A DNA stretch of 62,169 nucleotides, filler included, from Kipferlia bialata (taxonomy: Eukaryota), in the NCBI GenBank assembly GCA_003568945.1. It is 6 parts of 5 records of this genome, joined end to end, with 100 filler letters (N's around TTAATTAATTAA, not from the genome) between each part and the next. Parts side by side here need not be neighbours in the genome. Positions count along the whole stretch, not along the records: positions 1 to 14,557 come from BDIP01000802.1; 5 more parts are not named here. The stretch is one strand, 5' to 3'. Each line of letters opens with the position of its first letter. Position 1 is the stretch's first letter. The notes under the pieces are model-generated. The model searched no databases. It saw nothing but the letters and a program-made list of their open reading frames with translations, and was not told the DNA's origin. The position numbers and the translations under genes are program-made. This document shows, piece after piece, positions 999 through 42,273 of this stretch.

Positions 999-3900
999 CG
1001 ATCTATATATATGTCTTTCTCTCCCTTACCCTAGCGAGGTCACCTCCATCATAGTCAACCACCGTTCCACTCCTGAGTCTGAGTATGTGTACCACAGCAC
1101 CATAGAGGTATCGTACAGTACATATATATACATATATACACTAATATAGTATAGAGATATATACATGTAGTGCCACCCCTGAGTCTGAGTATGTGTACCA
1201 CAGCACTATAGAGGTATGTATATATATATATACAGTATATGGTATACATTATAATGTGATTAGTAGTTACATTAGTATTACTACAATAATGTACATATAG
1301 TGCCCCTGACTCTGAGTATGTGTACCACAGCACTCTAGAGGTATGCATGAATATATATATATGTATATATATATATATAATTACACACAATTCATATATA
1401 TATTAGAGGTATATATATAGTGCCCTCCCTGACTCTGAGTATGTGTACCACAACACCATATAGGTATTTTCACACACTTAGATATATACAGCACTATCGA
1501 GTTACACATATATATTGCTTGTATAATTATGTGAATCTGTATAGATATGTCTCCCCCCACCTCTCTCTCTCTATATATATGTATATATAAATACACTCCT
1601 CTGACCCTCAGGAGCCATCCAACTACGATGGCGGTGACAACGCATGGGCTGATCGGAGGTATATATTGGTGGTTGGGAGTATATACCTGCACACATACAT
1701 ATTTGTATATATAGTATATGTGTTATTGTAAGGATTCTCATCGTGTTCTATTGTATCTAACCCCAGCAAGTACCTTTCCCTCTATGGTAACACCCAACGC
1801 TTAAGTGATATAAGTATTGACTTTTGTATTGCTTTCAATCTCTACATATACATATATATATTGGGTATACCCATTTATGTAGTTCTAACCATAGCAAGTA
1901 CCTCTCCCTCTATGGTAACACCCTGGTAGTGGGTAGCAAGTACTCACACTACGACAATCCCGGTAACCTGGGGTCGGTGAGTGATATGTATCTCTCTCTC
2001 TCTGTGAAATACAGTAGTATCCTAAGCATTAGTTCAGACGAGTATGTGAACATACAATGTTGTGTATTCTAACCCAGGGCTCTGCCTACATCTACCAGTA
2101 CACCGATGCCTCTGATGCATGGACACTGGTGGCAGAGATCAGAAACAGAGACTGTGCGTAGACACTTGTACTATACTAGTATAGTATAATGTCTACTTTT
2201 ATATTGTTGTCCTCCGACCCTCCACCTGACAATACGTCTGGTGTTGTTCATCTACTATTATATTATTCCTATACAATAGTATTCTGTTTGTTTCAGTATT
2301 CAACTATGCGTGTCCGTATATCCACATACAGTACATTTATAAGGATCTTCTCACCCCCTAGCCGACAACACCTTTGGCGTTGTCCTGGCCCTGACAGAGA
2401 CACACATCCTAGTGGGTATGGATGTACATATATGAATATGTATGTGTGTGTCTATATAGTGATTCATTAGTGTAAAGTGTATGTTCTTATATACGTGTAT
2501 TGTGTATATGTATATATGTAACGGTACTGGCCCTGACAGAGACACACATCCTAGTGGGGATGGATAAGAATTTGTATATGCATATTGTATATGTCATTGG
2601 AATATCATCAGAATTCTTCATCACAAAGAAGTGTGGTTGCAGATCAGGTGTACTCATGTGCTAGATACTGTGCTACCCACCAAGCGGCTCCAAGCTCCAT
2701 GCCAACTACTATCACCTTGGCAGAAGAATTTCTTCAATATGCATTACAAATCTATATATGTGAAGATGACGTATTGACCCACCAGGTGGTTCCAAGCTGA
2801 ATGCCAACTACTACGACCTGGGCAGGGTCACTCTGTACGACTGCTCTGCGGCACTAGAGGGCTCTCTCTCTCTCTCTGCTTCCCTCTCTACATGCAAGTC
2901 TGTCCTTGATGTCGTCTCTCCCTGTGACGGGACTGCTGGCTCATGCAAGTTTGGAGAGTACAAGATGTCTAGAGACCAGGTACACTATATACATATATAT
3001 ATATATATATCTGTGTGTGTATATACATGCATGTATGTCGCTGGGACATGCAAGTTCGGGGAGTACAAGATGTCTAGAGACCAGGTACACTATGTATATA
3101 TATGTATATATACACATAGATGTGTGTATACATGCATATATGTAGCTGGGTCATGCAAGTTCGGGGAGTACAAGATGTCTAGGGACCAGGTAGAGTATTT
3201 ATCTATCTATCTATATGTATGTGTGTGTGTATACATGCATATATGTAGCTCGGTCATGCAAGTTCGGGGAGTACAAGATGTCTAGGGATCAGGTACAGTG
3301 TCTTGACATTGATATGTGAGTATATCTATATACACGTATGTATATATGTATATGTCTATATACTAACCCTTAGGACGCCTCTCCCTATTCACATGAATAT
3401 TTATACTAAACATGCGCATATATACACTATGTACATATTGCTAACTATTAGGACCCCTCTGCTCGTGTCACCGTGGTCACAACCCTTGATACCATACAAA
3501 ATATACATACTATTATATAGTATGTCATATCTAATCACAGGACCCCTCGGCTCCTGTAACCATGGTTACTACCCTAGATATGGGCATACACACATCAATG
3601 CCAATCAGTGCAGTGGCAGGTATATATGCATATATGGTATATATAATAGATGTACAATTTGTGCACATATTAGTATACACACATCCATGCCTATCAGTGC
3701 AGTGGCAGGTATGGACATGTAAATGTACATATTTAGTATGTATATATATAGTTATTGGTATCCACACATCAATGCCAATCAGTGCGGTGGCAGGTATATG
3801 CATACACAATTGTATAGATACTGAATGTATATTTGTACTGTTGTCTACCATCACTGACGATCAATGCGGTAGTAGGTATCTATATTTCTCTCTCCATTTG

Positions 3901-6900
3901 TCTCTCGTGGATTGATATCATTGTCTGTCTGTCTCTCTCCCCCTATATATATATATATATACATACATGTAAGTGTACTAACCCTCAGTCTCCTTTGACC
4001 TTGATGCCCTCACCTACTCCATGACCACCTCTTTCTCTCTCTCTCTCTCTATCCCTCTCTCTCTATATATATCTCACCCCAAGTATCTTTCCATCTGGAT
4101 GCCCTGACCTACCCTCCACTCTCTCTCTCTCTCTCCCTCTTAACCTCAGTATCTTTCGATCTGGATGCCCTCACCTACTCCATGACCACCCTGACACCCA
4201 CCATGGGGGATGACCTGGAGATTGGTATGAGAGTACATAGTACTATAGATAGTTGTATACGTGACCTGGAGATAGGTAAACATGTTGGGTGTAGCTCGGT
4301 CTCTCACCAGACCCTCTCTCTATCTCCCTCTTTGTCACTCTCTACTTATATCAAATAGTCACTCTAGGTGCTCTCTCCCTGACCAGTGGTGTCCTGGCTG
4401 TGTCTATCCAGGACAGCAACGCTCTTTCTCTCTCTCTTCCCCTATATGTATGTATGTATATATATATATACTTGTGCTCACTTTAGGTGCACTATCTCTC
4501 ACCAGTGGTGTCCTTGCTGTGTCTCTCCAGGACAGCAACGATGGCTGGAGCAGCCCATCCTACAATGTAAGTATATTCTTTTGTTGGCCAAACAAACACG
4601 AGTCAGAGAAAGATAGAGTATACTGTCTCTGTCTTATTCTATCTTTGGAAGAATCCATCCTACAGTATCAGTATTTGTGTTTCTCTCCCCGTTTTTCCTT
4701 CTCATCATGTCTTCTCAATCTCTGTTCTCTGTTCTCACCCTCCAGACCAGTGAGCAGTTGTACACCTTTGAGTGTGATACGCCTTCTCTCTCTTTCTCTC
4801 TCCATCTATATATGTATGTATATGTAGATATCTCGCCCCTCCAGACAAGTGTTCAGCTGTTCACCCTTGAGCGTGACTCATATTCTCTCTCTTTCTCTCT
4901 ATATTTGTATTAATATGTATTAATTACTATCTCACTCCCTAGAGTAGTGTACAACTCTACTCCCTTGAGCATGACACCCCAACAAACACAGACAAGTGGA
5001 CTCTTAAGGCAGAAGCTGATAAGTGAGTGTATAGTATGTTAATATATGTATATATCAATGTAAATTTCCAGTGAGCAGGCTATTCATGTACATCAATATA
5101 TATATATGTGTGTATATGTTCATTGTATACTGTACAGACACCCTCATTCTCTGATATCTGAGACACAGTGATATATGCACCGTTACCTATATCACAGTAC
5201 CTGATTTATTGTCTTGTATTCTCACCCTATGTGTTTATACATCATATGTGTTACTGTATATATATACCATATGTATACTGACTTTCAGCGACATATGCTT
5301 CGACTCCCCCGTCCCCTACTGTGGCACAGACTTCAGTGCATATATATATATGTATACATATTATATATTAATATACATGTATTCTAACATACAGTGACAT
5401 CTGCATATCCTCCCCCGTCCCCTACTGCGGCACAGACTTTGGTGCATATGTCACCCTCTCCCCACCCTCACCTGACGGCACTCTCTCTGTTGCAGTGCGT
5501 ACTGACCACTGCACACCATCAGAGCTAGTCATAGACAGCTCTACCGTTAAGGATACGGGTTGCGTCGTCTTTATGGACATCGTGCAACTTGAGACGTCTG
5601 GAGCGTCTGGAGCGTCTGATGCGTCTGATTGGGAGTTTGTTGTAACCGGTGCAGTGAGGGCTATGACTGGGTGAGGTCTGGCTGAGGAGTATGATGATAC
5701 ACCCATACAGTACACTGACACAGACACAGTGGCAGTGGGTAACAAGCATGACCAAATACACTACAGGTTAGTATATATTTGTATATATATATACTATTAT
5801 AAGGAATTTATTCCTTGGAGTATCTGGACTAATCCCAGTGCCTATACCATCAGCCCCTCCTCCACTGCACCTGAGGTACCCACCTCTGTGGCAGTGACAC
5901 CCACAGCCATAGTCCTAGGTATGTATACTATAGTATGTATCTATATGTGATTGAATATTCAATCTGATATATATTGTATTTACTCACAAGTGTGACAGTC
6001 ACACCCACGGCCTTAGTGCTAGGTAGGAGATTACATACAGAGCATATGCAATAGGGCATGTATATAAATACAGGTGTGTTGTCCCTACCATTGTGGTAGT
6101 GACACCCACCGCCATTGTATTGGGTATGTATACACTCTTCAGTCTGTCAACTAATATGTTTAGACGCTGTCTCTATCATATATATCATCAGTAGCCTGGT
6201 GTCATTAATACGAATTGTTACCTGATGTCTAGATGAGCTGATATGTATCTGGTATTCTATTTACTTATGTTTACTATATTTGAATTGTGTTTTTAGACAT
6301 ATGTCAGTTACCTCTAACCGCAGGCCAGCTGATGATCGATGACCTCAGCATCTCCTTCCCCAGGGAGGACGGTACAAAGATATATAGTAAGGTATACTAG
6401 TTATACATTGAACACTTTTATATGCATATATATATAGGTGGGCGAAGCATCTCCTTCCCCAGGGAGGACGGCACAAAGACATACAGCAAGGTGTGTATGG
6501 TATATATCAATACATCAATTAGGGATAATTGTAAAGTGTACAGTTAAGTATACACGCATATATAGCATCTCCTTCCCAAGGGACGATGGCACAAAGATAT
6601 ACAGCAAGGTGTNNNNNNNNNNNNNNNNNNNNNNNNNNNNNNNNNNNNNNNNNNNNNNNNNNNNNNNNNNNNNNNNNNNNNNNNNNNNNNNNNNNNNNNN
6701 NNNNNNNNNNNNTATATTTCTTTTTACCTTAGGACTCAGTAGTACTTGTGTCCATGGGTGACCAGACATTCCTGGCCACCCCTGATGCCACCCTGTCTGC
6801 ATACACTGTGCCATCCATCATGTTGACACTGGAGACAGTTCGTGATGCATTGACACTAGAGATAGAGTACTATGTACCTACAGGTATATACTATCTATAT

Positions 6901-8754
6901 TATATATACTGTATATACTCTGTCTGCATATAGTGTGCCATCCATCATGTTGACACTGGAGACAGTGTCAGAGGACTTGACTTTAGACATTGAGTACTAT
7001 GCACCCTCAGGTATATACTATGTATACTGCATTTACCATATATACATACATACATACATATGTATATATGTATGTATGTATACACTGCGCCCTCCATCAT
7101 AGACCTACACCTGGACCTATAGTACTACGCTAGTTTTAGTACATGAATACATATCTATCTATCCATATATTGATTAATGTGATGAGTATGTAGGCCATAG
7201 GTGCAGTTGGACATATGATGCTGTGAAGATGTCTCTCCACACTCTACATCTTTACGGTTTCATTGTATATATGAACTTAAGATACTCTACCATACTACTC
7301 CTCTCATCTTACTTTAGGTGTCAGTAACCTGGTCAATGCCTGTCCCACCTTCCAGCAGAGTGTACCCATGCCTGTCAGTGGGGGGACACCCAGTGCTATT
7401 AGTGTAGACCCCATATTCCTTGGGTATGTATATGTATAGTATGTATAGTATGTATAGTATGTATGGGTGAGTCCAACTACACTGTCCATTCCTAGCACAC
7501 GTATATATGTGTATATACGTGTGTATATATGTATACCATACGTATATATGTAACAGACGTGCATGTGTATATACGTATATATATATGTATATGTGTATAT
7601 ATGTACATACTCACCCCAGGTGGGAAGAGGACGGAGAGGTCAACGACTTCACTGTACAGCTGACCAACCAGTACGGGGCACTGATAGCAGATGGGAGGTA
7701 TATATGTTATTTTACATATGTATATAATAACAAAACACGCATATTAATGTATATATATAAAGATTGATATCATACTCTCTCTATATGACGCATAGCTATG
7801 TATATTTGATCTGTCTAATGACTTAGGGAAGTGCACCTTGGTACCTCTGAGGACACAGAGACACCCATGGCATACGATGCAGACACTGCTACATATTCCG
7901 TAAGGTATGAGGGGACACACATTTGGAATTATATGCAAATATGTATGTATATACTGAGACCCATGGCATACGATGCAGACACTGCTACCTACTCTATTAG
8001 GTACGAGGGTATATTTGCATGAATATAAATATGTATATATATATGTATATATCTCTCAGGACTCCGAGTCAGTGATGGCATACGATGCAGACACGGCATC
8101 ATACTCGATAAGGTAAGAATTATAATAGAATTGTATACATATGTATATCCATATGCAGTTGTGTACTGAGACAGTGATGACATACGATACAGAGAGAGCT
8201 ACCTATAGTATTAGGTATGATGATTCATTAGATTCATAGATATACAAGTACAATTGTGCCATGGTACCCCCATGAGATACGATGCAGGGACTGCAACGTA
8301 GTATCTTAGGTATGAGGGTATTGTCACAGCTCTATATGAACATGTCTTCGATACACACTAATATGTCACATATGTATTTGTACATGGCCAATCACCTGCA
8401 TATATACGCATTGTGATACAAATCACAGCCTCCTCACTCTGGGAGTGGTGCCTCAATCGACACCCTTTACACACACACACATATATGTATATACATTCAC
8501 GTATATTGTATATGGCACCCCTAGTATACCCTATCTTTATATATCTTACCCCAGCCTCCTCACTGGGAGCGATGCTTCCACCAACACCCTGTACCTGACA
8601 GCATACTACAGTGGGACACACTACACAACGACACAGAGGTACTGCAGTGTATATACCGTAACACTATAGTCAAGACAAAATGCTCAATATTGTTCTCCCC
8701 TGACTCTACTAACTAGTAGCTTATGCTTCAGTGACATAATCATCTTTGCCTCCA

Positions 8755-8791
<37 letters not shown>

Positions 8792-10471
8792 CACCCTTCA
8801 TCTCTCACTCCAGTCTATACTTCAGTGACATGATCACCTTTGCCTCCATCTCCCCATCTTCTGTCCAACTGCACATGCCAACCACATTCCATGTGCAGTT
8901 CACAGACGCTGTAGGTGTGTATATAGTATACATATATACATATATAGTTATATGTTTATGGATATATATGTATATATACCTCCGTCCAACTGCACATGCC
9001 AACCACATTCCATGTACAGTTCACAGACGCTGTAGGTATATAGAAAAGTAAATCCCATATATATACATATGTATATTCTATATACATAACAGGAGATAGT
9101 GAGAGAGATATGCCAACCACATTCCACGTGCAGTTCACAGACGCAGTAGGTATGTATAATGTATATATATACACACACATATATATATATAGATATATAC
9201 ANNNNNNNNNNNNNNNNNNNNNNNNNNNNNNNCATATATATATATAGATATATACATGCCAACCACATTCCACGTGCAGTTCACAGATGCAGTAGGTATA
9301 TAATATAGTTATATATATATATATATATATATATGCCAACAACATTCCACGTGCAGTTCACAGACGCAGTAGGTATGTATGGATATGTCACATATACATG
9401 TTGAGGGAGAGAGAGGTAGATAGCGAGAGAGAGATACCAACCACATTCCACGTGCAGTTCACAGATGCAGTAGGTATATACCATATGCAGACTCATTTTT
9501 AGTATGTATATGCAATTACACATACGGAATTCAAAATTCTACCCTATTCAGAATTATTTTGTATTTATACCAACATAGACATAACTATTTACCTGTCAGC
9601 CACATCGTTAACTGACACATTGAAAACACAATTGTTGTGGGATATAGTATTACTATCGATAACTGCTTAATGTAGAGTATTTCTGTTACTGATTGAATAT
9701 GCATATGTATTTCACTTTCTTTTCACTTTCTTAGGCAACCAATTCGTATATATACATACCTTAAACTTGTATCAGACCTGTGCAGTAGTGTTCCGTCTGT
9801 CTCACTCCCAGGCAACCTTGTGGGAGGTGTTGAGAAGGGATTCGGAACAACCATCGGGTAAGTTCTATAGTGTTGTTATCCATTACATTGTGTGTATTTA
9901 GAGTAATTGCAGACACTGTTCGTGGGACACCAGATGACACCATCCATATTGCATTGTCAGATAGTATATGATCTGAGTCTCCATGTATGCTCTCACTCTG
10001 TATATGCGTGAGTGTCTCGCCCTATCTCTCTATGTATGTCTTACCCCCAAGCCGTTATTCAATTCTCTCTCTCTATATATATATACTTCTATCCATATAT
10101 TTCAGTCATATCTCGATCTTTTCCCCTAGGCGGATCACCACATATGATACCCATCGTCCCTCTTTCTCTCTCTCTCAATGTATGAATATATCTAAGTATA
10201 TATATGAATGTCTAACCCCTCAGCTGGAGCACCACTGACGACACCCAGCGTACACCTCTTGTCTGGGACCTAGAGACACTGTCCTACGTGGGAGTGCTGG
10301 TGCCAGACCACGACTCAGGTAGCACGATATATATATATATATATATACGTATACACATACATATATATGTATGGGTATATATATGTGTATAATAATGCTG
10401 CTGTAGCTTGTGTTCTCTGTCCTACGTGGGAGTGCTGGTGCCAGGCCACAACTCAGGTATAGTGGTAAACA

Positions 10472-10507
<36 letters not shown>

Positions 10508-11384
10508 CGAGTATATCAATATATATATATCATGTTACAGTATGTTTACACTGACATAATGGGGAGTGCTGGTACCAGACCACGACTCAGGTACTATTTC
10601 ACTTCTGTCCCTCTATGATTATATGTATACAATGGTACACTTGAAGTGTTTGTAGTACACCGCTCTGTATCTCTACAACCCTGACGTACCACACTAATTG
10701 GGTGTGTAGGTTCTCTATCCATCTGTATACATAGTATTGCTTACTGTATATGGATAGAATAGCTAACCATCAGACTCTGACACCGATCTGGACTACCAGG
10801 ACTGGATAAATATGTATATATGTAGTCATATATCCATATCAATCGTATCTACGTATGTGCATGAGTATATCTATTTCTCTAACCCCTTAGACTCTGACAC
10901 TGATCTGGACTACCAGGACTGGGTGTATGTGGAGGTGGACGGGCCATTTGGATCCATCCAGTACCAACAGGTGAATGGTAGACAGTGATATATATGAATG
11001 GGATGCCCACACACATATGTATGGTTATATATGTGTGTGTGTATGTGGAAGTGGACGGGCCATTTGGGTCTATTCAATACCAGCAGGTTAGTACTTACAT
11101 ACACACATACTTACCATCTTAATGTGATTATGGTGTACCTGTACTGATGCATATATATACATGTGTATACATTACACACATGGATGTAGGAGACTGGTGG
11201 AACTATACATATGCATGAATATATCCATATACTTATCCCAGGTCCCCAGCATTCATGGTATACATGGTATCTCTATCTTCCACATATACATATATATGCC
11301 TACTCACCCCAGGTCCATGTGCATGAGCCACTGGAAGGAGTCACAGTGTATATAGTACTGTATATATTCATATTCATATAGTAT

Positions 11385-11431
<47 letters not shown>

Positions 11432-12963
11432 GTAACCCCAGGTCCATGTGCATGAGCCACTGGAAGGAGTCAGCACATTGCTACCAGGTAACCATACTGT
11501 CCATGTATATAGATATGGAATTGTGTCATCCAATCACGTATATATCATCATACGTCTTACCTCCCAGATGGAGCAGACCACTACAACTAGACCTAGGCCT
11601 CTCTCTCTCTCTGTCTCTCTCTCTCTATATATATATATATACATATTAATACATATTTACTCATTATCCAACATCCCAGATGGAGCCGACCCCACTGCAA
11701 CTAGTATTTATGCCTTTACCTTCATGTATACAATCTTATGTATCTCCATAAATATATCTCCATAAATATATCTCTCAACCTCCAGATGGGGCAGACCCCA
11801 CAGCAACTGGCCCTGTCGCTGCATGGGATGACCTTCTATTCGTACTTGATCCAGCCAACGCCATTGTCAGAGTCTATCGCGTAGATATCGACATTGATAC
11901 TTCAAACACAGATGGGGGTGATGATATTACCTACACCCTCCTGGTTGAGGAGACTCTGTGGTACAGCAGTGCTGCATACAACGAGTATGACACCTTTGAA
12001 ATGGTGTATGACGATGCATCAGGGTACGCATAGCACATACATGCACATATATACACACATATATACTTATCTATGTCTGTACTACTATGTACCACACACA
12101 TATGTGTCTATATACAAAAGATGATTTGAGTATGACACCTTTGACATGGTGTATGACCATGCATCAGGGTGTGTTTGTAAAACTACATATAATGTAAATG
12201 GAATGCACTACATAGTGGATATACCATATGCTACATGCAATATATAGGTCTGTATACAACGAGTATGACACGTTTGACATAGTGTATGACCATGCATCAG
12301 GGCACGTTAGTATGGTTACTCTATGTATGTATGTACATATATATATAGATTCTGGATATTATATATGCTCACCTTCACGACCGTCCATTACACTATATAT
12401 TCTTGTCATTAGGTAATAGTCTTACCCGGATACGTTGCTATCAGTACCCAGGACTATTACATTGATTGTATACTCTATTCACATATACATATATATATAT
12501 ATGTACTTGTACTGATCCACAGATACCTTGCCATCCTGTATATACTCTATTCAATTATCTATATATATGTATGCATGTATCAATATCTCTCTATTGACTG
12601 ATCCCCATATCTATATATATGTATCAATATCTGTGTATTGACTGATACTCATATCTATATATACGTATCGATATCTGTGTATTGACCGATACTCATATAT
12701 ATATATATATATATCAATATCTGTATATTGACTGATACCCAGATACCTTGCCATCCTGTCCCAAGACATTGGGAACCTGATGATACTGAGGGTGGATGAT
12801 GTAGAAGGTACTAGTAGTATGTGTATACATTCACATATTCTATATATACCAGTTTGATAACCAGATACTATATCAATATATATATGTATATATACAAACT
12901 TATGATTCTGAGGGTGGATGACGTGGCAGGTACAAGTAGTATATATATATCTGCGTATGATCT

Positions 12964-13005
<42 letters not shown>

Positions 13006-14290
13006 ATACATAATATTGAAATGTCTACTACTTACCCTCAGGCTCCCTGACCCATTGAGTATCTGGACCAGCCTTAGTTCTTCTGTATACTTGTTGATAT
13101 GTATATATATTCATACATACATTCTCATGTCTAGGCACCCTGACCCCCATTGGGTCTCTTGTCCAGACAGACACACACATTTACACTCTCTTCCATATAC
13201 TTACTATGCTTATATATATATACTTGTAATCCTTCCTTATCTTTGGCACCCTGACCCCCATTGGGTTCCTGCGCTAGACCATGTATATATATATATATAT
13301 GTATATATATGTATATATGCTTAACGATTAGGAACCCTGACCCCCATTGGGTCTCTTGTGCAGACAGACGGCACAGAGGAAATAGCAGCAATGGCAATGG
13401 CTGAAGGTATGATATTGTGTGATGTGGATATATACTTAGTATATCTGGCTCCCTGTGTCTGACTGTGACACCGCTTTCAGTCATTCTCTTTCTCCCGATG
13501 TCCCACTCTATATGAAGTATTCTAAGTGTAGACACCCTCTTCCTGACCTGTGACTCTGGTGTCAGTCTCTCTCTCTCTCTCTCTTACTCCCTCTCTCTCT
13601 ATGTATATAACCCATGTTCTTACTCCAGGCACCCTCTTTCTGACCTGTGACTCCGGTGTCAGTCTCTTTCTCTCTCTCTCTCTTACTCTATATCTTCCTC
13701 TCTCTCTGTTATTACCTTTCTTACTCCAGGCACCCTCTTCCTGACCTGTGACTCCGGTGTACGTGTGTTCACAACATCCAATGGACAGGTACATATGCAC
13801 ATAGAAGAGTAGTGTATTTAAGTAGTAGTGTATCTATCTGGTTACATATGTCAATATTGATGTGATCTCACCACATCCACTGGAGTACAGTGTAATGACT
13901 ATAAATGTGTATATTGGTATATCAATATGTATGTTTACAAACACATATATTCATTGCTAATGACCCAGTGGACAGAGGAGGAACCCATCTTCATCCAGTT
14001 TGGGAGCAAGCTGGATGAGAGTCGCCTGGCCTTTGACGGAGTCACAATGGCTGTATCTGTGACATACACAGATGAGGTATATACATACGTATATATACAT
14101 GAGATGGCATTTCTATTCATGTATATATGTAGTGGGTATCCGTAGATGTTATTATGTGATATGTAAACATCAGTTGTATTATCATTGTAGAGTAACAGAG
14201 GTAATGGATACCCTGTCAATGTGATCCTTACCACAGGTGCTCCTGTACAGAAGAGACGTCTACACAGGACTCTGGGCCATGGTGCAGAAG
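1..14290 (+). CDS. Large multi-exon FG-GAP-type beta-propeller plus Ig-like repeat surface/secreted protein; partial at both ends
   Basis: Phase-compatible GT-AG exons stitch to SKYLSLYGNTLVVGSKYSHYDNPGNLGS|GSAYIYQY, DNTFGVVLALTETHILVGGSKLNANYYDLGRVTLYD and YCGTDFGAYVTLS (FG-GAP pattern FG..VAL....LVVG...G.AYIY). Ig-like segments follow (NDFTVQLTNQYG, PTTFHVQFTDAV), then a second propeller-like region (GPVAAWDDLLFVLD, RLAFDGVTMAVSV, VLLYRRDVYTGLWAMVQK). One in-frame TGA at 5672 is unresolved. Confidence 0.75.
921..1470 (+). repeat. Exon-echo array around exon 1035-1107 (1 acceptor echo, 3 donor echoes)
   Basis: cctgaStctgagtatgtgtaccac...ag|gtat repeated with TA-rich spacers. Confidence 0.9.
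8860..9480 (+). repeat. Exon-echo array: 5 donor echoes of MPTTFHVQFTDAV|gt, spanning a scaffold gap
   Basis: ccaaccacattccaygtgcagttcacagaygcwgtag|gt repeated at about 8980, 9110, 9255, 9335 and 9435. Confidence 0.9.
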
Positions 14291-28376: not shown

Positions 28377-28921
28377 TTAGTGTATATTGAGATGCCTATA
28401 AAACACTGTCTCAATTGAATGCGTAGTGTTTGAGGGCATGGGCATAATTTACGAGGCAGAATAGACACATTGAGGGGTCTGATATTCACTCTCAATTGAA
28501 TAGTGCTTTTAGTAACTGCTACTAGTGGTATTCGAGTGCGTGGCATGGGCATAGTCTACTGGGCAGATTAGACAAATTATGCCGATCCATTCATTTTACC
28601 GGTATTGACTCCAAAAACACTGCACCCTTATGAAGAATTAAGCACAAGTTTCGTAAGACTACCGCACGTACATCATTTACTTGGATATGGTGCTCTTACA
28701 GGGTCATATTGTGTACTCTACCTCCTTGGGCATGTGGTGGAAGATTGAGAAGAGAGTGGTGGAAGATTGAGAAGAGAGTCCTAATAATTCTAGATTCACT
28801 TTGACACCGTTTGATTCCATCATTCTAAGTGCTCACATCGGTGCAGAATCGACGCATCTCTCTTTGCAGTATCATCTAGCTGCCTCCCCCCCCCTCTCTC
28901 TCTCTCTTACGGTTCCCTAGG

Positions 28922-29212: not shown

Positions 29213-29312
29213 NNNNNNNNNNNNNNNNNNNNNNNNNNNNNNNNNNNNNNNNNNNNTTAATTAATTAANNNNNNNNNNNNNNNNNNNNNNNNNNNNNNNN
29301 NNNNNNNNNNNN
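29213..29312. other. Artificial contig linker
   Basis: N44-TTAATTAATTAA-N44. Confidence 0.98.
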
Positions 29313-33320: not shown

Positions 33321-33705
33321 CTATAGGTGGTTGCGAGCAAGGGCCCCAAAGTACACCTGAGGGTCAGAAACAGTAATACTACATATACTAATATATAATA
33401 ATAGTATATAACATATGGGAAACTAAAAGAAATCTTGGGAAACACCCCTATGAGAGAGACAGTATTCTCACATACTCTACAGGATGGTTACATTGACGTT
33501 ACGGGCGAGAGAGGTCAGGTACATCTGGAGAGGTAGAGACACAATGAGGGTTCAGCGAGAGAGAGGAAGGCAGAAAGAGAGAGAGAGAGAGAGAGAGTGA
33601 GAGAGAGAGTGAGAGAGGGATACCTTGACGCTCTGAAGGTTCTCAGACAAGGCATTGCGAGAGGCATCCTCGATGTCGACACCTGGGAGGTAAGTAGACA
33701 CACAT

Positions 33706-33737
<32 letters not shown>

Positions 33738-36700
33738 CTAGAGTTGCCACATTAGTGAATATACCCACCAAGCTCCACGTTGCACTGTATGCATACATAC
33801 ACAAAATAACCGTCATACACAAATATATACCCACCTAGCTCTACGTTGCGCAGTGCCTGTTCGACCAGTCTACTCACAGCAACCTCCTGGCCTCCTGACA
33901 TTAAGGGTGCAGAGGGGTAAAATGGTAGGAACCACGAGTTCACTCATATGAAAGAGAGGTATAATAGGGTCATCATACCCCACGTACCGAGTGTCTGGAC
34001 GTGCTCTCCTACATATATAAATATTATTGTACATATACAGATATATATTTATATAGAGAGAGAGAGAGAGAGAGAGAGAATGAGGTATATACGGTCATCA
34101 TACCCCACGTACCGAGTGTCTGGACGTGCTCTCCTATGTAGACACCGAGGGTCTGGGAGTGAGGGGGGGTGGAGAGAAAGAATAACGGGAGAGAGAGAGA
34201 CTTGGTGAGGAGGCAAGAGACGGAAGACAAAGCACAAGAGAATTATGTGTATATAAGAACCCCATATATATATAGAGTCGCATATACACACCTCCTTGGG
34301 GGTGTCTAGCCCTGTGAGCTGGAGTATACACAAATGCAAAGATACATATACATAATATATATAAATGTATATATATATATATCTGTACATACCTCCTTGG
34401 GGGTGTCTAGCACTGTGAGCTGGAGTATACACATATACAAATATATATATATACATAATAATATATTATTATAAATATATATATATATACCTCCTTGGGG
34501 GTGTCCAGCACTGTGAGCTGGAGTATACACACACACATATATATGCAAAGATATATATACATACTAATATACATATATATATATATAAATATGTCTGTAC
34601 ATACCTCCTTGGGGGTGTCTAGCACTGTGAGCTAGAGTATACACACATATATATATGCAAAGAGATATATACATATATACATAATAATAATATATATATA
34701 TAAATAACACTATATATATATATACATATATATATACCTCCTTGGGGGTGTCCAGCACTGTGAGCTAAAGTAGCTGGAGTATACACAAATGCAAAGATAT
34801 ATACACATAATAATATATATATATATATATATGTCTGTACACACCTCCTTGGGGGTGTCTAGCACTGTGAGCTGGAGTATACGCATATGTACAATAATGC
34901 ATATGTATATATATATATATACATATATATATACCTCCTTGGGGGTGTCTAGCACTGTGAGCAGTGGCAGGACAGGGATGGCCATGGTCCAGGAGAACTT
35001 GTCAGCCAGCAGGATGCTGGGGGTGAGGGTGATAGATTTACAACACAATTACATATAATCAATGTAATCATAAGGGTGATAGGTTATTATAATACAGTTT
35101 CATATAAACATAATCATATTCTATATATAAGGCAATTAACAAAGCATGATGCTGAGGGTGAGGTGTATACATAGAAATTCTCATGAATAGTAGCTATGTC
35201 CTACTACTACAGAGAAGTATCATATACCTGTAGTATCAGTGGTATGAATGTATCCACACACTACAATATATTTAAACCTGTTCGGCAATGTATAGTCACA
35301 TACAAACATATATTAACATGTAAATATAATATACATGGACTTCCACCACTTACCTATCCAGCAGGGTCTTCAGACACTCAGGCAGCCGTGGCTTCAACAG
35401 AGTGTCCAGTCGCCTAAGGGTAAGCATGAACGTCACTATGAAAAGTCTCTAAAAGAAAAGAATAGAACTGAATCGATCAAAATCATCGAATGACAAATTC
35501 TTTACCTGGCACAGGTGACATCGCTTGCATCGAAGTAGGATGGAATGTCACTGGTGGTGGAGAGCCTGACACCTGGGGATTAGACACACACAGACATATA
35601 TATATATGTGTGTATATGTATATATGGGACAAAAAATGAGACACTTTGACAACATATATATATATATATGTATATGGAATGTCACTGGTGGTGGAGAGCC
35701 TGACACCTGGGTATCAGAGAGAGATATAGAAAGAGAGAGAGAGAGAAGTTAGCTCAAATACACACGACCATATAAGTCCAATATATACAATTATATTCAA
35801 GAGAGATACCCTATATATATATACATACAAATATATACAGTACCTGCCACATATGTGAGACATGCATTCAGGGCACCGACTGCCTTGTCTCTGACACTGG
35901 GCTGGAGGTGGCCGATGAGACCAAGGGTCTGGGGTGAGTTATGACAAGTATATAGGAAACAAATACAATGGTCTCAATATATACATAGAGTGAGAGCGAG
36001 CGAGAGATAAGACAAAAGGACAGAGACGAGGAAATACCTGTGAGAATAGGGCCAGCAGCAGTTCATCGCTGAGTGCATTGGTGTATGAGGGCAGGGTCTT
36101 GTACATGCACATGACCTGGGAATGAGGGATAAAGGGACAAACATGAGTATACATACAGATTCATGCACATGTGTATAAATATATGTATGTGTAATACGAG
36201 TATGTAATGTATCGACATGACCTGGGAATGAGGACGAAGAGGAAGTTCAGGTCAAGACGTTACAATCATATAAACATATATAAATCCACAACCCATACAT
36301 ATTACATATATTATTCTAACTCACCACATCACTGCCTGTCATAGCGAGCTTAGACACAGTGGACAGCTCATCGACTGGGGGGTTAGAAAGGTGGTAGAGA
36401 GAGAGAGAGAGAGAGAGAGATATGCCATAGGTAGATTCAGGGTCGGAGAGGGACATTTGTGGTACAAAACTCATTAATACATAATGATTATAATATATGT
36501 ACATATACAATATCAATAATATATTGGTGGTACCTGACACCGCAGCATAGGCCGTGAGCACAGCAGCCAGACAGTCCTGAAGGGTGAGAGACACAATTAA
36601 GGAATACACATGTTTCATTAGTAACAGCATAGTGTTAATGGTATTATTAATTATGCGAGAATGTGGATACCTGTAGGCACGTGTCTCCAAACAGCTCAAA

Positions 36701-38116
36701 CACACACACGTCCACCACGGTGTTTGACATGATGGAGTGCAGGGCCTTAAGCATGACTGGGAGTGAGAGAGAGTTATATATACTAATATACCTATATATA
36801 TACATGTAAACCAATTAAAGAATACTGATAGATTTATGCATATACATAATTATATGGTGTTTGACATGATGGAGTGCAGGGCCTTGAGCATGACTACGGT
36901 TAGAGTGATTTACATATATATTAATACTAACCATAAAGACTCAAATGTTGACAAACCCATATATAGAAATTAACCCATATATACATTTCGCCATGATGGA
37001 GTGCAGGGCCTTGAGCATGACTGAGGTTTAGAAATATATATATATATATATGTATATAGAAGAATCTTACACTAAAGGATTATATGCGTATATACACATA
37101 TGATTATGGAGTGCAGGGCCTTGAGCATGACTGGGAGTGAGAGTTATATATATATATACAAGACATACATAACAATATAAGTATATATATACGTATAGAT
37201 AGACTGGGAGTTAGTCACACAGAGTAACCGTATATATATATAGAGAGAGAGAGAGAGAAAGAGAGAGACTTCAACAACCACACCTGTCAATGGCTTGAGT
37301 ACTGTCTTGTATGGCTCCTGGTTCTTGGTCAGCTGGGTCTGGGCCTAAAGGGTAAGGTACAGATAAATCAATACACAACAATGAATACTTGGATGGCCAA
37401 ATATTCATGTGTATGAAAACAATATTGGCAATACCTGCAGCATAGGAATCACCCCTGTGAATATCCGTGTCACGTGCTGTGTCAGCTGGATAGTGACAGT
37501 GTCACGGCCAGAGGAGGGGGACCTCAGACGGACATTGCTGGTGTTATTCATACAATACTCTTCTATATTAACGTATATATATATACACAATTAGAGTGTC
37601 ACGGCCAGAGGAGGGGGACCTAAGGCGAACATTGTTGGGGTTAGATGTGTACATATGCAAATAATATACATAGAGAAAGAGAGACCTAAGATGAACACTG
37701 CTGGTGTTAGGAATGGTATATTAATAATAATAATAGAGTAATATGAATATATAATTAGGAGGTACTACCAGAACAAAATACACATACTATAACTATTACT
37801 ATGTCTGTGCATGCCTCGAGTATGAGTCTGAGCAAGAGAAACCCAACTACATTTGGTATATGTAGGTATATATATATATAAATGTGTGTGTGTATGTGTG
37901 TGCAACATACCTGTCTGTGCATGCCTCGAGTATGAGTCTGAGCAAGGGTACCACCAGGGGGAATGGTAGAGAGGCAAGGAGGGTGGGGTCGGCCAGGCGC
38001 TGGAGGTGAGTACTAATAGAAAGGAAACAGAGACAGAGGTGTGTGAGAGAGAGACAGAGAGAGAGAGAATGGCAAGAAGGGTGGGGTCGGCCAGGCGCTG
38101 GAGGTCAGAAGAGAGG

Positions 38117-38155
<39 letters not shown>

Positions 38156-41100
38156 ATGGCAAGGAGGGTGGTCAGCCAGAAACTGCTATACATAATAATA
38201 ATATTACCAAGATGTTGCAAATGAATATGGAAGAGAGCATACACACACATACATAGACAGAGAGTTCTGGATGGGGATTGGGACCAGAGAGACTCTGGGG
38301 ATCAGAATACAGAAGGACACTAGAAAACCAACACTTCAGATATCTAAACACACTTCACCGTAATCAGAATATGAAAAAGTCTTGTTTTCATGTACTGCAC
38401 TACAATGTACCTTGAGAATTGGCAGGAGTTCCCTAACAATCTCACAACTATAGAACTGTTCAGTACAGCAAGAACAACATGTAACTGTGTAAAACTAAAC
38501 TACAATTCTTCAAATATACCTTGAGAATTGGCAGGAGTTCCCTGACAATCTGGTCCTTGAACACAGACCGGGCCTGGACACCCCTCATGAGGCCCCTGGG
38601 GTTAGAACGCAATAAAGAATGAATATATATATAGAATATATATAAATATTGAATCTCACCTGGCAGCTCTGAGGCTGAATAACAGCTCTGAAGCTTAGTG
38701 TATATATACTTCCAATGAATATAACATGACGTTCTTCATAATTATACCTTGCCGCTCTGAGGCTGATTAACAACTCATTGGGAGGCACTGTCTGGCCCTG
38801 ACTGAAGGAGACAAGGGGGACGAGGGAGGGGTGGAACAATAACCTAAGAGGTTAGAGAGAGAGAGAGATATATGGATTGAAGACCAGGGGGACAAGGGAG
38901 GGGTGGAACAATAACCTAAGAGGTTAGAGAGAGAGAGAGAGATATGGATTGAAGACCAGGGGAACAAGGGAGGGGTGGAACAATAACCTGAGGGGTTAGG
39001 TATGGATATATATACATATATATATATCTATATGTATATATATACTGAAGGAGACATATACTGAAGGGGGGCTAGGGGTAGAAGAGGATCCTAAGAGAGG
39101 GAGAGGGAGATGGATACCTGTGGAACAGCTTGTGTGTCACTGGCTTTCCCATCAACAGACCGATGGGAGTCAGGGCATCCTGGAGGTCCTGAAAATCAGA
39201 ACCAATATAGCTTATTTATGTGTATATGTATATGTATGTGTATATGTATATGTATATGTATGTGTATATGTATACCTTTCCGGCTGCCAGGATGACTGGG
39301 AGGGGACACACTACAAAAGCGGTAATATATATAAACATATATGCATCACTGAATACCTTTCCGGCTGCCAGGATGACTGGGAGGGGACTGTTGGCTGGGG
39401 GTCTGCACAGGGTGAGGGGGTTGCGGTGGATGAGAAGGCCTGGGGTGAGGGTATATATATTAATATATATATACTACTATATATATGTATATAGTGGTAG
39501 TGTGTATAGCAGGGTGAGGGGGTTGCGGTGGATGAGGAGGCCTGGGGTGAGTATATATATATTAATATATATGTATATATATATGTATATATATATAGTT
39601 GTAGTGTGTAAAGCAGGGTGAGGGGGTTGCGGTGGATGAGGAGGCCTGGGGGTGGGGGTATACTATATACATTATATATATATATATATAATATAAACAC
39701 TATTATATATATTGATTCATTGGGGTGGATGAGGAGGCCTGGGGGTGGGGGAAGAATTCCATAATTATATAATACATATATTATATATATTTTATATCTA
39801 TATTATATTGTGAAGAGTAAATATATATATGTATTAATGTGTATAGGGTTGCGGTGGATGAGGAGGCCTGGGGTTGGGGTATCTTATACATAGAGTTAGT
39901 AGCATTCATAGATACATATGTGGGAGAGGGGATAAGAGGTGACACTCACCTAGCGATGGCAGTCTCTCGAGGGTGGAGGTCTTGACAACGTCCTGGGAGG
40001 TCAGAGAGAGGCGAAAATATGGAAGAAACATCTCCAAATACGAAGGAATGTGTTCTGAACGATGTCTTGACAGATTACCCAAGGGGTATGTCTATCCGTA
40101 CCTTTCCGAAGCTCTGCAGCACATTGTGTCCAAAACAGCAATGTAGATTGACTTAATAAGGATACAAGATGATGGCATCCTAATACAGAGTTGTATATAT
40201 GGCACAAAACAATAGTGCTGATACCCTTACCTTTCCGAAGCTCTGCAGCACGTTGTGGACAGTCTTCAACAGCCATGGGAACCTGGGGTACTTGGTCAGA
40301 ACACGGGTGATCCTGGAGGGTCAGGGATGTCGATACTACCTATACACATGAATTAGAAAATATACATACATATATAATAAAATATAATTATTCTTAAAAT
40401 ATAATTATTATATAATAAAATATACAAACATATATATAACTAATAATAATATTAATTAATTACTTGGTCAGAACATGGGTGATCCATAGGGGGTGAGAAT
40501 GACACATTCAGAGTCTCTCTACCTGCATATACGAAGGCATACATACACACTATATTGACAATAATCATACACCGGGGGCCAAGAGAGCGTTAGCACGAAA
40601 TCATACATACACACATAAAAATACCCAATTAATACACCTTGCCAGCAGGGCGTAGAGGACCTCATCTGTACTATACATATACGCACACGTATATATATAT
40701 ATATATATATATTTCCTATATACACACCTTGCCAGCAGTGCATCGAGGACCTCGTCTGTGGTAGGCTCTCCTGCTGAGAGAGAGACAGGCACAGGGGCAG
40801 TGGAGCCTGGTATAAGAAATATATCAATACATATATGTCCATATACAGAGAGAGGCACAGGGGCACTGTTCTGTTACAGGGTCATATATATGAGTGTACC
40901 AATATAGAAACACAAATATACGGATAGAGAGAGAGAGAGACATACAAAAATACAGTGGAGGTTGGCACCAGGCCATACTATGGAAACAAATACTCAGTGC
41001 ATTTACCAACCCCTACCTGATGCCCTCCGCTCTGTCTTTGCAATCACGATATGTCCTGCACATATTCTTATACTTATCCTATACATATTATACTATATAC

Positions 41101-42088
41101 ACGATATTATACTATATACAATATAGCACATATACTACCTGATGCCCTCCGCTCTGTCTTTGCAATCACGCTAGACAGTACACTGGACAGGTGGATGGCA
41201 GACCTGCGCATAAAAGGGTGTGGAGATTAACACTGATCACAGACTGATGAGTATGAATATTAACTGATACCTCTCGAGGAATAGGCCAGCTGGACTGTCG
41301 TATCTGGCAGGCATGGACTGGGAGTGAGGGATGAAGAGAGAGAGAGGGGGGTGAGGGAGAGAGAACTACACTGGCGAATGAGTATACAATGATATACATA
41401 CACGAAGTACCTCGAGTGTCCTCCAGAGGTTGACGACCAGTTCCCGACCTGGGGGGGTGGACATGATGGCCTGGGTATAAGGGATGTAGGAAGAGAGAAC
41501 TAGGGCAGAAGTATTGGTGTATTTGCAGGACCTTAGTGAAGACACATACACAAATCTATCAATGAATGCGTCTACCTGTGTGATCTCTGTGATGACACAG
41601 TATGTGAATATAATACATACAATGAATATGTATATAATACATACAATACATGTACCTGTGTGATCTTAGTGATGAGCAGAGTGGTGGCAGCCAGTCTGGC
41701 AACGGCACGGGTCCTGGGAGTAAGAGGATATATAAATACATTTAGAGGGAGACATAAAGAGAAAGAGAGCGAAACATACTGGTGCATACTGGTACATTTG
41801 TGCATACCTGTCTGGCTCGCTGTCCCCCGAGCATGCCCTCGCCACCAGTGCCTGCAGAGTGGCATTAGCTGGGTCACTGTGGGGTGAGAAAGACAAGGGG
41901 GTGAAGGGGATATGAAACATACTGAGACCGATTGGGTGTGTGATATATATAGTTATGCTTATAGAGATATAGAGAAATGAAAGAGATAACGCACGTTGCA
42001 TCCCCGACATGGAGGCAGAATGCATGGAGGTCCAGAAGGAGAGACATGTCAGGGGACTGGGCACAGAGCTCATCGACACCTGAGGGAT

Positions 42089-42122
<34 letters not shown>

Positions 42123-42234
42123 CATGTCAGGAGACTGGGCAAAGAGCTCATCGACACCTGAGATAAGAGAGAGAGAGAGAGAGAGAGAGACATGTCAGGG
42201 GACTGGGCACATAGCTCATCGACACCTAAGGGAT

Positions 42235-42273
<39 letters not shown>

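What the first reader, a model, noticed from the sequence alone, without database searches (positions are those of the whole stretch)
7827..8320. Four echoes encoding the same peptide with different codons, including a TCN-to-AGT serine switch
Exon end GCT ACA TAT TCC GTA AG|gt (ATYSV). Echoes: GCT ACC TAC TCT ATT AG, GCA TCA TAC TCG ATA AG and GCT ACC TAT AGT ATT AG. The most distal copy carries a TAG. Serine kept across TCC/TCT/TCG/AGT and V/I exchange imply long protein-level selection on each version, while the spacers share little. More than two deeply diverged versions are hard to explain as a diploid assembly artefact, although this gene family probably has paralogs that could be donors.
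Basis: partly seen in the sequence, partly recalled or inferred. Interest (0 to 1): 0.8.

Follow-up and report, generated by a model that had tools for sequence, protein, structure and literature searches.

The report
Displaced exon ends fill protist introns
In a free-living relative of Giardia, about half of the intron DNA examined is made of roughly 100-base repeats that each hold a spliced-out copy of the neighbouring exon's end, likely the scars of DNA repair from genetically different chromosomes and so possibly a record of past outbreeding.

Summary
The four echoes are real (ends at 8000, 8112, 8214, 8309, each followed by GT), but they are one case of a window-wide feature of this Kipferlia bialata DNA. 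64 of 100 introns in four unrelated genes carry 134 partial copies of the flanking exon end or start, each adding about 106 nt; they make up 51% of intron DNA. A spliced contig uses only the host exon. Copies differ from the host mostly at silent sites (0-fold/4-fold ratio 0.22, 95% CI 0.17-0.28), while a neutral tandem duplicate of a selected exon gives 0.50-0.58 in simulation. Copies farther from the exon are more decayed (17 vs 3 arrays). So each copy was a working, already diverged exon end that was displaced and then decayed. 'Same peptide' holds for echoes 1-2 only; the serine switch sits in a decayed copy. Best mechanism (0.55): repair from a diverged homolog that starts in the exon, runs into non-matching intron and is end-joined, pushing the old exon end into the intron. 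No donor allele was found, and no long reads were available.

The parts
7620..7697 (+). upstream exon (exon 18 of the mapped model) of the gene for P0001
   Evidence: protein mapped letter for letter; its end is the loose end before the host exon in contig X2-2
7827..7904 (+). host exon, the only copy found in the spliced contig; ends ...ATYSV AG|gt
7905..7955 (+). spacer 1: intron start after the host donor site
   Evidence: sequence; weakly similar to the intron start after copy 1 (p=0.044)
7956..8002 (+). donor-type echo 1 (PMAYDADTATYSI) with GT; 3 synonymous + 1 non-synonymous codons vs host
8061..8114 (+). donor-type echo 2 (DSESVMAYDADTASYSI) with GT; preceded by CAG but without a branch-point motif
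8165..8216 (+). donor-type echo 3 (TETVMTYDTERATYSI) with GT; AGT serine at 8207-8209; 5 non-synonymous codons in the last 12
8266..8311 (+). donor-type echo 4, most distal and decayed; TAG at 8299-8301; GT kept
8426..8470 (+). acceptor-type echo of the next exon's start, preceded by CAG, with one gap
8555..8638 (+). downstream exon, joined directly to the host exon in contig X2-2
595..14290 (+). gene for P0001 (named hypothetical protein KIPB_003950, partial); 49 echoes analysed in 30 introns
17545..28376 (+). WD40-repeat gene (P0004); 38 echoes in 31 introns
28433..28571 (+). two echoes of the WD40 gene's last codons including the stop, downstream of the gene and not at a splice site
33324..43780 (-). 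gene for P0006 (KIPB_003955, no clear Pfam family); 39 echoes in 32 introns
44194..46077 (-). DnaJ-like gene, eight exons drawn by hand (label from recalled HPD and CxxCxGxG motifs); 7 echoes in 7 introns

Best explanation
The echoes are spliced-out copies of exon ends that likely were working exon ends displaced into the intron when a break was repaired from a diverged homologous chromosome. Inferred steps: a break falls in an exon 20-55 nt from its edge. One end invades a diverged allele through the remaining exon homology and copies that allele's exon end plus about 65 nt of its intron. The new strand now ends in intron DNA that does not match the other break end, so annealing fails and the ends are joined by polymerase-theta-type end joining. 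The donor's exon end becomes the working one; the resident end, with its splice site, lands about 106 nt further into the intron and decays. Repeated events push older copies outward. The mirror event gives acceptor-side copies. Exact local duplications also expand some arrays. Shown: the anatomy, the silent-site bias, the outward decay and the skipping in one spliced contig. Inferred: the donor, the break position and the enzymes.
For: Anatomy: 123 of 134 copies lie within 3 nt of the splice site; intron length = 142 + 106 x copies, r=0.87; donor-type copies always precede acceptor-type copies, 0 violations in 64 introns. Diverged at birth: 0-fold/4-fold ratio 0.22 (CI 0.17-0.28, 84 arrays) against 0.50-0.58 simulated for a neutral duplicate of a selected exon; 0.19-0.25 in each of the four genes; same without CpG sites (0.23); a two-phase fit gives 0.18-0.31 silent substitutions per site at birth. 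Copies differ from each other with the same bias (0.39, CI 0.24-0.62, 28 arrays). Silent differences are directionally balanced (GC>AT 67, AT>GC 69) while replacement-site differences run towards AT (91 vs 46; P=0.005), as expected for allele differences plus later decay. Distal copy more diverged in 17, less in 3, tied in 8 of 28 arrays (P=0.003). 31 copies with at most one exonic difference have intron flanks only 50% identical to the host's (2 of 31 reach 90%), which a fresh tandem duplicate would not show. Echoes of a stop codon without a splice site point to the edge of homology, not splicing. At least 15 nt of exon always remain uncopied. A published table lists PolQ, Spo11, Msh2, four Dmc1 and five Rad52 for K. 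bialata and no Ku70, Rad51A or Brca1 (PMC8516963 supplement); failed strand annealing rescued by polymerase theta makes tandem duplications in worms (PMC8654963, passages); Dmc1 stabilises mismatched joints (PMC6719624, abstract).
Against: No donor was found. P0001 and P0006 are single-member clusters at 90% identity, and the WD40 gene's two other copies are identical in protein over 473-491 aa, so a homolog diverged by 0.2-0.3 at silent sites is not visible in this proteome; the donors must be past alleles or lineages. The echo-echo interval includes 0.5 (14% of bootstraps). Loss of GT/AG is not higher in distal copies (4 of 49 vs 9 of 84). Junction microhomology was only inspected by eye and none stood out. 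XPF and Rad10, which clip non-matching tails, are present. The 15-nt limit may reflect erosion or selection against near-complete exon copies. DNA contigs did not lay across the array, so its long-range order rests on the assembly. Gene models come from a predictor (three) or by hand (one).
Confidence: 0.55

Rival explanations
1. Echoes are born as exact tandem duplications across the junction (slippage or sister-templated repair) and are later refreshed by unequal exchange or gene conversion with working exon ends of diverged alleles. It needs the same allelic diversity but two steps.
For: Some arrays have near-identical copies and spacers (2935-3299, 38809-38999, 42034-42268). Flanks are more alike than unrelated introns overall (P=5e-11 donor, 1e-8 acceptor). 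Several copies are patchworks, identical far from the splice site and diverged near it (echo 1 here; mismatch 0.14-0.15 within 12 nt of the donor vs 0.08-0.12 at 12-35 nt).
Against: Refreshing distal copies would blur the outward age order, which is clear (17 vs 3). Only 2 of 31 near-identical copies have near-identical flanks.
Confidence: 0.2
2. Echoes are kept by selection as spare or alternative exon ends, used through rare splicing or through DNA collapse between host and echo.
For: Low dN/dS; GT kept in 71 of 77 and AG in 48 of 56; indels in only 11 of 133.
Against: The spliced contig uses the host only. 10 of 77 donor-type copies have an acceptor-like signal, five from one array and none of the four here. 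7 stop codons among 1596 codons (some at ragged far ends), outward decay and AT-directed replacement changes.
Confidence: 0.08
3. Assembly artefact: a short-read assembler stacked exon-intron junctions from several haplotypes of a mixed culture.
For: Unit length (median 106 nt) is close to a 100-nt read and echo length (20-55 nt) to common k-mer sizes (recalled); the published draft of this species that I read is a SPAdes assembly of Illumina reads (PMC5874029); no DNA contig laid across the array.
Against: 0.96 of 255 sampled words are held by run X1; 19-28 would be missing if the nine junctions in that stretch were not in reads, about 10 are (P=1e-4 to 0.035 by assumption). X1 may be the window's own sample, so this tests the assembly, not a second individual. 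Stops, lost GT/AG and ordered decay cannot come from stacking working alleles.
Confidence: 0.09
4. Echoes were captured from paralogous genes.
For: The gene has a K. bialata family, and P0007 is nearly identical to P0001 over residues 634-733 and much less so after, which shows exchange between family members or a mosaic copy. The closest paralog's version of this exon is not among the hits: P0010 ends just before it and P0007 starts after it.
Against: Paralogs that cover this exon (P0008, P0009; 33-35% overall) differ far more than the echoes do. Echoes occur equally in genes with no diverged close paralog found (the short-query searches are weak). Where P0007 has Y in exon 24, the echo has the host's F.
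Confidence: 0.08

Closest known systems
Tandem duplications from failed synthesis-dependent strand annealing rescued by polymerase-theta end joining (helq-1 C. elegans; PMC8654963, passages read)
   Same: Head-to-tail duplication next to a break, explained by extension on a template and failure to anneal to the second end; K. bialata lists PolQ and lacks Ku70.
   Different: There the template is a sister copy, so the repeats are identical, about 100 bp to 10 kb (median about 1 kb) and need a mutant. Here units are about 106 nt, sit at coding/non-coding edges, were already diverged at silent sites, and fill half of the intron DNA.
One-sided invasion: homologous recombination at one end, end joining at the other (plants; cited in PMC9299229, passages read)
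   Same: One homologous and one non-homologous junction.
   Different: Described for transgenes and induced breaks, not as a standing genome-wide architecture between natural alleles.
Intron gain by tandem duplication (PMC3265369, abstract read)
   Same: A short duplication that carries splice signals.
   Different: There a duplication creates a new intron; here copies span existing junctions, lengthen existing introns and are spliced out.
Tandem arrays of mutually exclusive exons (Dscam type; search listing and recalled)
   Same: Tandem versions of one coding segment with silent-site divergence.
   Different: Those are whole exons with both splice sites and appear in mRNA; these are half exons with one site, and decay.

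Membership tests
Failed-annealing / polymerase-theta tandem duplication | direct head-to-tail duplication in cis | tested here: met
   all 134 copies are direct and in the intron next to their exon
Failed-annealing / polymerase-theta tandem duplication | copies identical at birth (sister template) | tested here: not met
   ratio 0.22 vs 0.50-0.58 simulated; birth divergence 0.18-0.31; a minority of arrays are near-identical
Failed-annealing / polymerase-theta tandem duplication | microhomology or templated inserts at the junction | tested here: inconclusive
   junctions of low-divergence copies inspected by eye only; donor sequence unknown
Failed-annealing / polymerase-theta tandem duplication | dependence on polymerase theta | not testable with these tools
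   gene listed for the species; no genetics
Mutually exclusive exon array | each copy has its own acceptor and donor | tested here: not met
   10 of 77 donor-type copies have an acceptor-like signal, none of the four here
Mutually exclusive exon array | copies appear in mature mRNA | tested here: inconclusive
   one spliced contig uses the host only; contigs drop rare forms
Intron gain by tandem duplication | the duplicated segment supplies the donor and acceptor of a new intron | tested here: not met
   host donor joins the next exon's own acceptor; all five copies lie inside one intron
Haplotype-stacking assembly artefact | junctions absent from reads | tested here: not met
   0.96 of 255 words held; 19-28 expected missing; indirect, no spanning contig
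Haplotype-stacking assembly artefact | every copy is an intact working allele | tested here: not met
   stops, 13 of 133 lost GT/GC or AG, ordered decay
Paralog capture | a paralog matches the echo better than the host does | tested here: inconclusive
   not so for P0007-P0012 at protein level, but the closest paralog's copy of this exon was not retrieved and no genome was held

The most novel reading that the evidence does not exclude
Kipferlia introns are built by repeated allele replacement: each repair event from a diverged homolog leaves the previous working exon end in the intron, so half of the intron DNA is an ordered fossil record of former alleles. One genome would then record outcrossing between lineages differing by 20-30% at silent sites in a free-living fornicate.
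Probability: 0.45. Interest if true: 0.88.

Novelty: new variant of a known kind. Interest (0 to 1): 0.72.

Why it matters
It gives a testable account of how introns grow in the intron-rich free-living relative of Giardia, and links a visible genome architecture to that group's unusual repair kit (no Ku, no Rad51A, Dmc1 and polymerase theta present). If donors are diverged alleles, the arrays are direct evidence of outcrossing and let former alleles be read and ordered from one genome. They also pose a splicing question: the cell picks the right site among intact decoy donors and branch-point/acceptor sites about 100 nt apart. I found no description in print: the genome paper has no occurrence of 'duplicat' or 'tandem', and five searches plus one on decoy sites listed nothing on it; subscription journals are not covered.

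Tried and rejected
No whole genome is held for this window, so a genome-wide donor search was not possible. No RNA holder is on record for the stretch; run X2 is a guessed RNA run with a small share, used only for the one spliced contig it laid. DNA contigs of X1 gave one unrelated 33-nt piece on 7790-8460; a hole proves nothing, and a wider lay over neighbouring arrays was not obtained. Two scans of metagenome contigs for other Kipferlia populations found no relative (P0004: 388 pattern matches, none confirmed; P0001: 22, none confirmed). Three look-ups of earlier findings returned nothing. Pfam gave no family for P0001 and only a sub-threshold hit for P0006; my working label 'exportin-like' for P0006 in the notes is a guess. 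Rejected: neutral tandem duplicates of the current exon (simulation); a CpG or base-composition cause of the silent-site bias (expected 0.07, observed 0.26); echo 2 as a micro-exon (no branch motif; not in the contig); the serine switch as proof of selection (3 of 8 doubly changed serine codons of 144, one in a threshold-score hit). No echo was found at the P0006 stop or the WD40 start (scores 14). Polarity against paralogs: host matches the outgroup in 33, echo in 7, both 1, neither 31 of 72 amino-acid differences; this fits decay on the echo side and does not separate the models. Dropped before counts: a spurious 6-nt last exon of the P0001 model, and 1 of 134 hits lying 62 nt from the splice site.

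Full report
Source and gene. A 79-residue exon segment matched one protein exactly, named hypothetical protein KIPB_003950 of Kipferlia bialata, a free-living fornicate (P0001). P0001, P0004 (WD40 repeats) and P0006 map letter for letter on the window as 31-33 short exons each (median exon 76 nt). I drew eight exons of a DnaJ-like gene by hand. The window is several scaffolds joined by N-flanked linkers.

Observation. The host exon is 7827-7904. Over the last 12 codons they differ from the host by 3+1, 4+2, 2+5 and 2+5 synonymous + non-synonymous codons, the last including TAG. So copies 1-2 encode nearly the same peptide and copies 3-4 are decayed. A fifth copy, of the next exon's start, lies at 8429-8470. 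One contig of run X2 (depth 14.5, no differences) covers the host exon, and its loose ends are the end of exon 7620-7697 and the start of exon 8555-8638: it skips all five copies. Rare forms would not show in contigs.

The feature is general. Aligning each flanking exon to each of 100 introns gave 134 hits in 64 introns (78 donor-type, 56 acceptor-type); 4 of 1000 non-cognate pairs reach the threshold; 123 hits lie within 3 nt of the splice site. Copies are mostly 20-55 nt, spacers a median 67 nt, units a median 106 nt; donor-type copies always come before acceptor-type ones; GT is kept in 71 of 77 and AG in 48 of 56. Units take up 14,585 of 28,512 intron bases. The WD40 gene's last codons and stop are also echoed twice downstream, with no splice site.

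Real or artefact. Unit and copy lengths resemble read and k-mer lengths (recalled values), and the draft genome paper for this species used SPAdes on Illumina reads and inferred diploidy (PMC5874029, parts 1-2 of 6 and term passages read). Against an artefact, run X1 holds 0.96 of 255 sampled 31-letter words of 6713-9201; with nine junctions absent from reads, 19-28 words would be missing, and about 10 are (P=1e-4 to 0.035). X1 may be the window's own sample, and its contigs did not lay on the array. Stop codons, 13 of 133 lost splice dinucleotides and ordered decay are not what stacked working alleles would show. I put an artefact at 0.09.

Selection signal. Across 133 copies (1596 codons) mismatches fall 125/111/346 on codon positions 1/2/3; dN/dS is 0.25, and 1.7-1.8 in the wrong frames. 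With each of 84 arrays weighted once and ragged far ends trimmed, the 0-fold/4-fold ratio is 0.22 (CI 0.17-0.28), and 0.19-0.25 in each gene. A duplicate that decays neutrally beside a selected host gives 0.50-0.58 in simulation with the same detection threshold. Base composition and CpG do not explain it. Copies also differ from one another mostly at silent sites (0.39, CI 0.24-0.62), which excludes 1 but not 0.5.

Two phases. On shared positions the distal copy is more diverged than the proximal in 17 of 28 arrays, less in 3, tied in 8 (P=0.003); 4-fold differences rise from 0.19 to 0.27 and 0-fold from 0.05 to 0.11. Silent differences are balanced in direction (67 vs 69), replacement-site differences run to AT (91 vs 46; P=0.005, copies not independent). 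A two-phase fit gives 0.18-0.31 silent substitutions per site already present at birth, depending on the assumed constraint. Intron flanks are related to the host's but only about 47% identical (31-35% for unrelated introns), and 50% even for 31 copies with at most one exonic difference. The copies therefore look like other alleles' or former alleles' junctions that then decay. Against this, GT/AG loss does not rise with rank.

Donor. The P0001 family has K. bialata paralogs at 33-64% identity; those covering this exon are far more diverged than the echoes, though the closest paralog's version was not retrieved and P0007 is a mosaic with about 100 nearly identical residues. P0001 and P0006 have no second cluster member, and the WD40 gene's other copies are identical in protein. 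No present donor is visible, so the donors would be past alleles or lineages. Two metagenome scans found no other population.

Mechanism. The simplest single process that gives a direct duplication at an edge of homology, with a diverged version and the oldest copy outermost, is repair from a diverged homolog: invasion in the exon, synthesis into the donor's non-matching intron, failed annealing, and end joining to the resident exon end. The published repair inventory fits (PMC8516963, section 8 and rows of Supplementary Data 2 read): PolQ, Spo11, Msh2, XPF, Rad10, four Dmc1, five Rad52 and Brca2 are listed for K. bialata; Ku70, Rad51A-D and Brca1 are not; HELQ is not in the table. Failed annealing plus polymerase theta yields tandem duplications in worms (PMC8654963, passages), and Dmc1 stabilises mismatched joints (PMC6719624, abstract). 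These steps are inferred, not shown here; confidence 0.55. Exact duplication with later allelic refresh gets 0.20, artefact 0.09, functional spare ends 0.08, paralog donors 0.08.

Novelty. The repair route is known; its use between diverged natural alleles as a standing builder of intron DNA was not found in the searches run (listings only) or in the genome paper. PMC6679479 (passages), PMC9299229 (passages) and PMC3265369 (abstract) do not describe it in what I saw. I score it a new variant of a known kind, interest 0.72.

Noticed in passing
window 14558-14657, 29213-29312, 43867-43966, 51546-51645, 56876-56975: N runs around a 12-base all-frame stop linker: the window is six scaffolds joined end to end, so neighbouring genes across these points are unrelated.
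   Followed up: yes
window 23283-28376 (P0004 vs P0002, P0005): The C-terminal half of the WD40 gene is recorded on three scaffolds with identical protein sequence: recent segmental copies or assembly redundancy.
   Followed up: partly
P0007 vs P0001 residues 634-733 (window about 8875-11487): A family member is nearly identical to P0001 over about 100 residues and much more diverged after, suggesting a conversion tract or mosaic.
   Followed up: partly
all four gene models: A branch-point-like CTNAH motif lies within 20 nt of the acceptor AG in 89 of 100 introns, and in 36 of 56 acceptor-type echoes, so many decoy acceptors are intact yet skipped.
   Followed up: partly
window 14658-16800, minus strand: Another short-exon gene with both echo types (for example four copies at 15830-16224 and three at 14841-15159); not modelled or counted.
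   Followed up: no
window 14240-14557, 38809-38999, 42034-42268, 12520-12760: Young near-exact tandem duplications including spacers, some wholly intronic (12520-12760), show that exact local duplication also operates.
   Followed up: partly
window 45500-62169: GC-richer scaffolds with longer exons show few echoes in the self-comparison.
   Followed up: no
window 22278-22314: One GC donor site (AG|gcacgt) in the WD40 model, whose echo has GT.
   Followed up: no
window 60033-60606, minus strand: ORF pieces with GAGI, GIPDFRS and TQNID motifs suggest a sirtuin-like gene (motifs recalled).
   Followed up: no
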